A stretch of DNA of 64,000 nt, taken from the NCBI GenBank assembly GCA_964016885.1, contig OZ024743.1, forward strand, positions 158,844,001 through 158,908,000. The letters are read 5' to 3'. The notes under the pieces were generated by a model, which was given only the letters and a program-made list of their open reading frames with translations, did no database searches and was not told where the DNA came from. The position numbers and the translations under genes were made by a program. The stretch comes from Eledone cirrhosa. Its lineage: Eukaryota. This document shows positions 15,729 through 19,004 of the stretch, piece by piece (position 1 is the stretch's first letter; every line of letters starts with the position of its first letter).

Positions 15729-16007
15729 AATATATATATATATATATATATATATATATATATATATATATATATATATATATATATATATATATATATA
15801 TATATATATATATATATATATATATATATATATATATATATATATATATATATATATATATATATATATATATATATATATATATATATATATATATATA
15901 TATATATATATATATATATATATATATATATATATATATATATATATATATATATATATATATATATATATATATATATATATATATATATATATATATA
16001 TATATAT
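15729..16007. repeat. (TA)n microsatellite, about 280 bp
   Basis: Perfect TA run; further TA runs at 9451-9536, 16425-16636, 16757-16808, 18357-18422. Confidence 0.97.
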
Positions 16008-16018
16008 AAAACCATATT

Positions 16019-16083
16019 TATTTCATTATACATATTTCAGGGATACCAAATTAAATTATGGTATGCCTTCATCAGACAAAATA
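16019..16083 (-). ncRNA. Minimal type I hammerhead ribozyme
   Basis: UAUUUUGU-CUGAUGA-AGGCAUACCA..UGGUAUCCCU-GAAA-UAUGUA-UA-AUGAAAUA; 8-bp stem I. Confidence 0.8.
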
Positions 16084-16320
16084 CAATATATAACAGTTTT
16101 ACAAATAAGCTTTGACGTACCCTATTAAAATGCAACCATTGTTTTTGGAAGCCATCCGGATAGTGATTTGTTTATATTACTTCCGTCTTTTTCTAATTGT
16201 CCTTAACACTATGACTTATTAAAGTAATATAAACAAATCGCTATCCGGATGGCTTCCAAAAACAATGGTTGCATTTTAATAGGGTACGTCAAAGCTTATT
16301 TGTAAAACTGTTATATATTG

Positions 16321-16385
16321 TATTTTGTCTGATGAAGGCATACCATAATTTAATTTGGTATCCCTGAAATATGTATAATGGAATA
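16321..16385 (+). ncRNA. Minimal type I hammerhead ribozyme
   Basis: Mirror copy of 16019-16083. Confidence 0.8.
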
Positions 16386-17147
16386 AATATGGTTTTATAA
16401 ATATAGTTTCCATTTATTAATATCGTATATATGTATATATATATATGTATATATATATATATATATATATATATAATATATATATATATATATATATATA
16501 TATATATATATATATATATATATATATATTATGTATATATATATATATATATATATATATATATATATATATATATATATATATATATATATATATATAT
16601 ATATATATATGTATATATATATATATATATATATATTTATCAAATGAACACACTCTATTTTGGATTTAGTACTCATTTGAAACGGTTCTCAGGTACTTCT
16701 GTAGTAAGTAAAAACAAGACTGTGCACCTCCACACTCACACCCACACATACCACCCATATATATATATATATATATATATATATATATATATATATATAT
16801 ATATATATGGGTAGAGGTAACTAAATATGTTCACTCTTTTCCTAGTTTATTTTACACCTAATTCTGTTTAGTTGACTGTATATCTGAGCGATTCATACAC
16901 GCTGTCGAAATACTCGATAAATACTCCGTCGCAGCCGGCGCGAACGGCTGATTCGGTTATTTGTCGGAGATTTCTTCATAGAAGCCTTTATTCTTATAGC
17001 TTGGTCTAATCGATTTTTTATATGGTTAATTATGCTAATTGGGAGAGGAAATGGTATATATTTTATCTGGTGATTCTATAGACATGTTTTATGATATATA
17101 TATATACAATATTAAATAAATGGAAACTATATTTATAAAACCATATT

Positions 17148-17213
17148 TATTTCATTATATATATTTCAGGGATAACATATTAACAATATGCTATGCCTTC
17201 CTCAGACAAAATA
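17148..17213 (-). ncRNA. Minimal type I hammerhead ribozyme
   Basis: CUGAGGA core, stem II AGGCAUAGCAUAU/AUAUGUUAUCCCU, GAAA-UAUAUA-UA. Confidence 0.82.
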
Positions 17214-18160
17214 CAATATAAACAGTTTTATAGATAAATAGATTCGACATACCGTAACAACATCTACTTGCATTTGAGAAGGTTGATTTGGTTGTGACAA
17301 AATTGTACACAGAGAGAAAAATAGAGTATATTGAAATCTGGTCTATCTTTGCTTGATAGATAATCTTGTAGAGTAGAGACGGAAATAGTAATATTGACTC
17401 TATATACACATATATGTATACTTAAATTTTTATACCGCATTGAGAATACTTTCCGTGAACTTAGGGTTTGCAGAATTGATCATGTACATTCACATAGATG
17501 TTTGTAATTATCACATAAACATATGAATTTTTAAAAAAACTAAACATAAGATCATTAATTTTCACACATTGTGGATACATATCTCATTCAGGAATACTGA
17601 TATTTGCAATGCAGAGGCTGGTTTTGTAAATACGAGTACCTCTACATTAAAACAGAGGTTTGTACGCCTCGCCTGTGTCTGGATATTTTTGAAGTTTCTC
17701 TCTCTCTTTTTTCTCTCTCTATATTTTTTCTCTCCCTATATAACAGCTGGTTTTCCCTCCATATATTTCCCTTACATTAATACTAGAGCTAAATAAATAA
17801 ATAAATAAATAAATGTATCATTGATACGTTATTCAACAGTTGTCCCACTACCTAGCTTTCTATATATGTATCTATCTCTATTTCCTCTCTCTCTCTATAT
17901 ATATATCTCTTTCTGTTTCTTTACATGAAGTTCTTCTCTTTATCTATCTTTCCATCTCTCTATTTTGTTCCATGCATTTCTTCTTTTTCTTTTTCTTCGT
18001 TTTCTGTCTTTCTTTCCTTTTTTCTCTCTTTTTCTCTCTTTCTCTCTCTCTTTCTTTCTCTCTGTGTACAATTTTGTCACAACCAAATCAACCTTCTCAA
18101 ATGCAAGTAGATGTTGTTACGGTATGTCGAATCTATTTATCTATAAAACTGTTTATATTG

Positions 18161-18226
18161 TATTTTGTCTGAGGAAGGCATAGCATATTGTTAATATGTT
18201 ATCCCTGAAATATATATAATGAAATA
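18161..18226 (+). ncRNA. Minimal type I hammerhead ribozyme
   Basis: UAUUUUGU-CUGAGGA-stem II-GAAA-UAUAUA(palindrome)-UA-AUGAAAUA, overlapping AAUAAA. Confidence 0.82.
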
Positions 18227-19004
18227 AATATGGTTTTATAAATATAGTTTCCATTTATTTAATATTGTAAATATACTCCAAATATTTGTCGAGTGCTTTT
18301 ATATCAGTTATAAATATTTACTAGTTGTAACACAACAATTTAAATATAACTTTCCACATATATATATATATATATATATATATATATATATATATATATA
18401 TATATATATATATATATATATACACACATATATATATATGTGTGTGTGAATGTGTGAATGTGTGAATGTGTGTATGTGTGTGTGTATCTTGCATGTACGT
18501 ATGTATGTATGTTCAGTCAGGTCACTCTCGAGTGCTACTGGTAACAACCTGTCTCATGGTCGGATCGTCGGCGACTAAACCGGCAACCTCACTAAGCTAG
18601 CTTGGGTGATATTTCGATACCCTGCAGGATGAAATACAAGACTCGGCAAAGAGCAGAGGAACTCAGCAAAGTCAACCGCCATCCAAATAGTATTTTTTTT
18701 TTCACCTGGATGTGATTGTTACTACAACGCCTTTCTAGGAGAGGGAGCCTCCGAAAAAAAACCTGTGGCTTCGGAAGCATCCGATGATATTGACCAGTTC
18801 TCCTTTTCTGGTAGTGTTTTCGATGCTCAGAGAGTGGGATTGGTCGAGTGCAAGGTCTTTCCCGACTTAAAATGCCTTGAAAACACAGCCATTGCTTGTT
18901 CAGGATATGTCACAGACTCGTGTGGCTAGCCATAGCCTAAAAGTACACCAAACTCTATAAACTGACAACCGATTGCAATACTATTAGCAGAGTTTGCAGC
19001 CATC

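What the first reader, a model, noticed from the sequence alone, without database searches (positions are those of the whole stretch)
16005..18269. Palindromic non-coding elements with a hammerhead ribozyme on each strand
Seen: two neighbouring fold-back elements each have one hammerhead per arm pointing outward (16019-16083 minus, 16321-16385 plus; 17148-17213 minus, 18161-18226 plus). Core, stem I and AAUAAA are shared, but stem II differs between the elements (CAUACCA/UGGUAU versus CAUAGCAUAU/AUAUGUUAU) while still pairing, and the variable core base differs (CUGAUGA versus CUGAGGA). Known: PLE pLTRs carry minimal type I hammerheads with palindromic stem III loops that work as dimers, and PLE insertions often have an inverted pLTR. 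Inference: either inverted PLE stubs or a non-autonomous, retrozyme-like family giving self-cleaving hairpin RNA from both strands; no ORF is evident inside.
Basis: partly seen in the sequence, partly recalled or inferred. Interest (0 to 1): 0.75.

Follow-up and report, generated by a model that had tools for sequence, protein, structure and literature searches.

The report
Head-to-head Penelope retrotransposon stubs
The two fold-backs are ordinary truncated, head-to-head insertions of two subfamilies of a Penelope-type jumping gene (Hydra group), each arm carrying the parent's hammerhead-shaped RNA motif, which is predicted to self-cut; they are not a separate self-copying ribozyme family.

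Summary
In detail: two inverted repeats and four type I hammerhead motifs, against 0 in 50 shuffles. Both arms and both spacers are 98% identical to the 3' ends of two long elements in this genome. The family-1 parent has tandem pLTRs and a 735-aa RT plus C-terminal GIY-YIG ORF with Hydra-clade motifs (RWK only as RWR; clade not tree-tested). About 12,700 related hammerhead cores exist. Each window junction occurs once in the genome, and 27 outward-facing pairs show 26 different spacings. The footprint is very regular: 194 of 204 arms end about +53 or +143 nt past the predicted cut and none at it; 54 of 60 pairs have one end of each kind; paired arms share variants. One junction, at an 8-nt palindrome, recurs at 50 loci on at least three subfamily backgrounds, so it is a hotspot and not a clone. 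Inverted pLTRs, a one-sided tail and opposite-strand hammerheads are in print, and this scan noted the same footprint on other DNA of this genome. Cleavage and expression are untested.

The parts
16005..16182 (-). Element 1, inverted 5'-truncated copy of the family-1 pLTR 3' end. It ends only +22 nt past the predicted cut, an exception to the +53/+143 rule (likely a later deletion into the (TA)n; inferred)
16019..16083 (-). Type I hammerhead motif, CUGAUGA core, predicted cut after 16027
16182..16430 (+). Element 1, forward 5'-truncated copy (includes the 39-nt spacer); 98% identical to the L032 pLTR; short end (+53); 1-nt overlap at the junction
   Evidence: junction unique
16243..16250 (.). 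8-nt palindrome in the family-1 pLTR. It is a recurrent head-to-head junction site elsewhere (50 loci) but is not used as the junction here
16321..16385 (+). Type I hammerhead motif, predicted cut after 16377
17105..17326 (-). Element 2, inverted 5'-truncated copy of the family-2 pLTR; short end (+51)
17148..17213 (-). Type I hammerhead motif, CUGAGGA core, predicted cut after 17156
17325..18356 (+). Element 2, forward copy: 3' UTR/pLTR of the family-2 element (98.5% over 1064 nt to L090), with the ~90-nt tail (long end, about +140); 2-nt overlap at the junction
   Evidence: junction unique
18161..18226 (+). Type I hammerhead motif, predicted cut after 18218
15733..16004 (.). (TA)n target tract left of element 1. 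(TA)n also flanks 16430+, 17095-17104 and 18358+

Best explanation
Each fold-back is a single insertion of a Hydra-type Penelope-like retrotransposon into a (TA)n tract, made of two 5'-truncated copies of the element's 3' end joined head to head, and it was likely formed when the element's enzyme primed reverse transcription from both strands of the target and the two cDNAs were joined at their truncated ends. SHOWN: the arms and spacers are parent sequence; the parent encodes RT plus a C-terminal GIY-YIG nuclease; insertion ends cluster about +53 and +143 nt past the predicted hammerhead cut; pairs usually have one end of each kind; the two arms share variants; junctions mostly overlap or differ by only a few bases. 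INFERRED: the nuclease nicks both strands of the self-complementary (TA)n; priming is internal on RNA not cut at that hammerhead; both cDNAs come from one RNA or one source locus; they are joined by microhomology, with an 8-nt palindrome as a hotspot. The hammerheads are passengers of the pLTR. In the parent they likely process tandem transcripts as dimers; in these stubs they are likely inert.
For: Full-length parent L032: tandem pLTRs 4234 nt apart and a 735-aa ORF with RW[R], DKT, FIQLD, YRDD, CxCx5C, VVY-YVG, CxxC and CxH motifs and no GxKF/Y. Atlas look-alikes score 0.96-0.98; some clusters carry GIY-YIG (26-50% of members) or RVT_1 (77% in one). The family-2 arms adjoin a 78-84% identical ORF. 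Copy numbers: 1296 and 234 exact hammerhead copies and 12,659 family-wide, controls 0. Among the first 100 listed hits: 27 outward pairs with 26 distinct spacings, 1 convergent pair, 8 tandem pairs, against about 1.7 close neighbours expected by chance. Ends: 105 short, 89 long, 7 running into the ORF, 3 other, none at the cut, of 204 arms. One long plus one short end in 54 of 60 pairs, or 43 of 49 without the 11 pairs fetched for the hotspot junction. Arms share 22 variants against 4.2 in permutations (max 11), family 1, 21 of 24 pairs. (TA)4 directly after the end in 29 of 30 and 28 of 30 unbiased loci. Hammerhead covariation: 9 of 19 pairs change on both sides, 1/500 shuffles. Literature: PMC8557442 section 11 and Fig. 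2 legend; PMC4209133; PMC11167929 (PAc nicks and extends both strands, initiates internally, tail lies between two start sites, hammerhead cleavage not needed in vitro).
Against: Pfam gives no significant hit for the parent protein and neither does PDB, so RT/EN identity rests on motifs and the Atlas. No tree against reference Hydra proteins was built. No intact family-2 ORF was among my loci (longest 668 aa). The elements (3.8-4.2 kb) are longer than the <3 kb given for Hydra. Window element 1 itself breaks the long/short rule (+22/+53). Shared arm variants could also come from gene conversion after insertion. In family 2 the shared-variant excess (23 vs 3.1, max 21) is driven by one indel in two loci. 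PAc initiates at sites without homology to the target, whereas the ends here have 2-6 nt of TA microhomology. The hammerhead stretches alone fold no better than shuffles (z -0.09 to -0.85).
Confidence: 0.9

Rival explanations
1. Same PLE origin, but the inverted arm is made by self-priming (snap-back) of one cDNA or template, which then copies itself, as proposed by Arkhipova et al. 2013.
For: A perfect-palindrome junction recurs at 50 loci. Several of these show the centre, 17-30 nt of inverted arm and then a jump. Arms share variants. PMC3846280 passages propose self-priming from junction palindromes.
Against: The tail is not tied to the arm with the longer 5' extent (16 vs 20). The asymmetric centre is oriented 10:9 relative to the tail (counted by eye). 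Snap-back alone does not explain two fixed, different outer ends.
Confidence: 0.2
2. A distinct non-autonomous, retrozyme-like palindromic family that moves as a unit and yields self-cleaving hairpin RNA from both strands.
For: No ORF inside. One junction recurs 50 times in family 1. Nineteen of those loci share a centre variant and a flanking allele.
Against: The window's junctions are unique. The spacers are parent sequence. The recurrent junction lies on at least three allele backgrounds that also occur in long copies. The shared centre variant is native to a long-bodied subfamily (8 of 30 unbiased loci). There are no tandem monomers here. The hammerhead is predicted to be masked in the full hairpin.
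Confidence: 0.03
3. Assembly artefact (fold-back long-read chimeras).
For: Palindromes are a known artefact class (recalled). No listed short-read contig spans the element 1 junction.
Against: The arms differ by 1-2% and have different outer ends, and the spacers are single-copy within each element. The same end rule holds across dozens of loci on many contigs.
Confidence: 0.01

Closest known systems
Hydra-clade Penelope-like elements (Craig et al. 2021, PMC8557442), e.g. Penelope-13_HM and Hydra-1_Obim
   Same: Single ORF, RT then C-terminal GIY-YIG, DKT, CxCx5C linker, CxxC and CxH motifs, canonical hammerhead in the pLTR, (TA)n targets. File S1/S2 list Penelope-13_HM with a 5'-truncated inverted copy and a hammerhead on both strands.
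   Different: Units are 3.8-4.2 kb with a ~1.8-kb 3' region (Hydra generally <3 kb). RWR stands in place of RWK. The tail is ~90 nt (30-40 nt is the general PLE figure). The hammerhead sequence differs from the listed Hydra-1_oBim one and has a longer, internally looped stem II.
Schistosoma Cercyon PLE dual min-HHRs (Cervera and De la Pena 2014, PMC4209133)
   Same: Pairs of hammerheads 100-700 bp apart on opposite strands, read as truncated PLEs.
   Different: Here stem III has 2-3 bp with a near-palindromic loop (canonical type I rather than minimal), and the parent is Hydra-type.
Anolis PAc Poseidon element (Frangieh et al. 2024, PMC11167929)
   Same: Two internal RT start sites define the tail; both target strands are nicked and extended; unprocessed RNA is the template; AT-rich targets.
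   Different: Different clade. PAc start sites lack homology to the target, whereas the ends here show 2-6 nt of TA microhomology and lie in the 5' UTR, not in the ORF.
Metazoan non-LTR retrozymes (bioRxiv 10.64898/2026.07.22.740005)
   Same: Non-coding DNA with a type I hammerhead related to PLE pLTRs.
   Different: Retrozymes are tandem direct repeats of a monomer. These are head-to-head fragments collinear with an autonomous element and have unique junctions.

Membership tests
Hydra-clade PLE | Single ORF, RT with C-terminal GIY-YIG EN | tested here: met
   L032 735 aa: FIQLD 262, YRDD 360, VVY 628/YVG 643; Atlas neighbours. Pfam and PDB gave no significant hit.
Hydra-clade PLE | DKG changed to DKT; GxKF/Y not conserved | tested here: met
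   KSDKTNN at 126; no GxKF/Y match
Hydra-clade PLE | RWK motif | tested here: inconclusive
   RWR at 45, a conservative change
Hydra-clade PLE | CxCx5C linker; CxxC and CxH motifs in the EN | tested here: met
   CNCRNKSNC 609, CDLC 700, CRH 727
Hydra-clade PLE | Canonical hammerhead in the pLTR | tested here: met
   (motif and covariation only; cleavage untested)
Hydra-clade PLE | Insertion into (TA)n | tested here: met
   29 of 30 and 28 of 30 unbiased loci
Hydra-clade PLE | Phylogenetic placement with reference Hydra RTs | not tested
   Reference proteins were not available as tool sequences
Penelope-like elements (general) | Partial tandems (pLTR), inverted 5'-truncated copy, one-sided tail | tested here: met
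Non-LTR retrozyme | Tandem direct repeats of a hammerhead-bearing monomer | tested here: not met
   Head-to-head arms only, collinear with the autonomous parent
Non-LTR retrozyme | Circular RNA or self-cleavage | not testable with these tools
   No RNA holder listed
Non-autonomous palindromic family | Same junction and ends at many loci on one haplotype | tested here: not met
   Window junctions occur once each; the recurrent junction elsewhere lies on at least three backgrounds

The most novel reading that the evidence does not exclude
Some short family-1 fold-backs are themselves transcribed and remobilised by the Hydra enzyme. A palindromic RNA would regenerate the palindrome at each jump, which would explain the 50 identical junctions and the 'centre + 17-30 nt inverted + jump' junctions: a retrozyme-like parasite being born directly from inverted PLE stubs. 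The two window elements would be first-generation precursors, not members.
Probability: 0.08. Interest if true: 0.55.

Novelty: new member of a known kind. Interest (0 to 1): 0.2.

Why it matters
As a discovery it matters little: inverted pLTRs with hammerheads on both strands are textbook PLE structure. The family is still a clean natural record for an open question, how PLEs make head-to-head insertions. Thousands of young copies have two fixed ends downstream of an uncut hammerhead, one of each per insertion, and a palindromic joining hotspot. With an intact 735-aa ORF in hand, the two-primer and snap-back models could be tested in vitro.

Tried and rejected
Rfam scans gave no hammerhead model, only microRNA-type chance hits below gathering scores. 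Pfam and PDB searches of the parent protein gave nothing significant. MFE folding of the hammerhead stretches was no better than shuffles. Sequencing runs: no RNA holder listed. Contigs of runs X1, X4 and X5 confirm very many copies, but no listed piece spans the element 1 junction, which is uninformative. Clonal non-autonomous lineage: seemed to show that the allele shared by 19 palindromic loci was nearly absent from long copies (6 vs 117), but the pattern demanded a base that this subfamily lacks. Searches found the allele in 8 of 30 unbiased loci with native upstream sequence, so the idea was rejected; note 3 is superseded by note 4. Naiad clade was rejected because the EN is C-terminal. 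AAUAAA as a poly(A) signal: it is part of the stem I 3' strand in AT-rich DNA; not tested further. TSDs cannot be read inside (TA)n. A look-up of earlier findings by sequence and by words returned nothing.

Full report
Observation. The region holds two inverted repeats, 15999-16182/16222-16405 (98%) and 17099-17326/18048-18275 (99%), set in (TA)n tracts. A type I hammerhead descriptor of my own finds four motifs in the whole window, at the places given and pointing outward, and none in 50 shuffled windows. Rfam does not see them, and the isolated stretches fold no better than shuffles. Sixteen family members picked from my loci for diversity keep the core invariant except N7. They show changes on both sides in 9 of 19 pairs (1 of 500 shuffles; slid controls 0-5), mostly at the base of stem II, plus a double change in stem III. 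The rows are related, so this is supportive and not a probability. All four bases occur at N7. The motifs are real hammerhead folds by sequence; cleavage was not tested.

Parent elements. The arm of element 1 has 2037 first-look candidates in the genome and that of element 2 has 1243; only 40 of each were scored. Exact hammerhead stretches occur 1296 and 234 times and a looser pattern 12,659 times, with reversed controls at 0. Locus L032 has two direct copies of the arm 4234 nt apart around a 743-codon open frame, 735 aa from the first Met. The protein has RT motifs (FIQLD, YRDD), DKT, RWR, a CxCx5C linker, a C-terminal GIY-YIG-type motif pair, CxxC and CxH, and no GxKF/Y. These are the features that section 11 of PMC8557442 gives for the Hydra clade, except RWR for RWK. 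Pfam and PDB gave nothing significant. Atlas neighbours score 0.96-0.98, and some clusters carry GIY-YIG or RVT_1 in part of their members. Element 1 including its spacer matches L032's pLTR at 98%. Element 2's forward part, 17325 onward, matches L090 at 98.5% over 1064 nt, and L090's broken ORF is 78-84% identical to the L032 protein. The two window elements are therefore independent insertions of two subfamilies that are 86% alike in their shared part.

Are the palindromes a family? Patterns across each window junction match once in the genome. Among the first 100 listed of 12,659 hits, 27 neighbouring pairs face outward, with 26 distinct spacings (124-4276 nt). One pair converges and 8 are tandem; about 1.7 close neighbours are expected by chance. 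In 60 pairs mapped on the parents, the two arms stop at widely different points and mostly meet within a few bases of overlap or insertion. A read-through transcript is predicted to pair all 65-66 hammerhead nucleotides with the opposite arm, so self-cleaving hairpins are unlikely.

Insertion footprint. I kept 204 distinct arms that had 420 nt of flank; others were dropped. Of these, 105 end 49-58 nt past the predicted cut, 89 end at 143-146, 7 run on into the ORF, 3 are other, and none ends at the cut. One long plus one short end occurs in 54 of 60 pairs (43 of 49 without the 11 pairs fetched for one junction type). The exceptions are three tandem arrays, one long arm with an internal deletion, one unexplained long-long pair and window element 1 (+22/+53). 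The tail is not tied to the arm reaching further 5' (16 vs 20, 15 equal, of 51). In family 1 the two arms share 22 variants against 4.2 on permutation (21 of 24 pairs usable). In family 2 the excess comes mainly from one indel. In two unbiased sets of 30 loci, (TA)4 follows the end in 29 and 28, and an inverted partner lies within the 1.5 kb held in 15 and 12.

A recurrent junction. Four pairs's list had the same gap, which is the centre of an 8-nt palindrome in the pLTR; 50 loci have that junction. I first read 19 of them as a clone. That was a pattern error: their alleles are native to a long-bodied subfamily (8 of 30 unbiased loci), and the junction occurs on at least three backgrounds. It is a hotspot, and the window's elements do not use it.

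Mechanism. Likely the nuclease nicks both strands of (TA)n, RT primes internally at two fixed sites on RNA not cut at that hammerhead, and the two cDNAs join at truncated ends, favoured by short homologies. These steps are inferred. They agree with PMC11167929 (passages and the second half of the main text read): both strands nicked and extended, two internal start sites bounding the tail, hammerhead cleavage not needed. Snap-back self-priming (PMC3846280, passages) remains a rival and may make some junctions.

Known versus new. PMC8557442 (abstract, passages, section 11, part 2 of 59 of the supplement) describes inverted 5'-truncated copies and one-sided tails. It lists Penelope-13_HM with hammerheads on both strands and a different Hydra family from Octopus bimaculoides; unread supplement parts could hold closer relatives. 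PMC4209133 (first of four parts) already notes dual hammerheads 100-700 bp apart on opposite strands as truncated PLEs. The 2026 retrozyme preprint (first of five parts) defines retrozymes as tandem repeats, which these are not. Five paper searches did not show this particular family. Earlier notes of this scan report the same footprint on other DNA of this genome. That the host is a cephalopod is my recollection from the flanking SINE and (TA)n content and was not tested.

Verdict. A real, ordinary feature: new members of a known kind, interest 0.2.

Noticed in passing
G000, 50 loci, e.g. L163-L176, L193-L225: Recurrent perfect-palindrome junction at an 8-nt palindrome 79 nt upstream of the hammerhead core, on several subfamily backgrounds. 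Some loci show the centre, 17-30 nt of inverted arm and then a jump.
   Followed up: yes
L032:2455-7389 (minus strand; G000:C1:259295500+): Full-length family-1 element with an intact 735-aa ORF and tandem pLTRs, each starting at a (TA)n tract. The unit carries an internal (TA)n about 650 nt upstream of the hammerhead.
   Followed up: partly
flanks of many loci, e.g. L044:1030-1112, L123:1932-2014, L167:274-858: Many other hammerhead types from unrelated or distant families cluster in the same (TA)n-rich flanks, some with long stem II.
   Followed up: partly
window 14962-15734: Three to four tandem copies of a ~230-300-nt repeat with the look of a SINE (recalled). The same repeat is inserted in the junction of L181.
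   Followed up: no
window 45136-57095 and 39464-40684 (minus strand): A run of long open frames (up to 1141 aa at 50013-53438), probably another retrotransposon; not examined.
   Followed up: no
window 9837-10124: Very weak similarity (E 0.36) to the parent's RT core, possibly an old PLE remnant.
   Followed up: no
window 19785-19880: Exact 48-nt tandem duplication, inside a 221-aa open frame at 19314-19979.
   Followed up: no
L090:3300-3620: Complex 5' junction in which an inverted piece extends past the tail toward the ORF start, showing templates that reach beyond +143.
   Followed up: no
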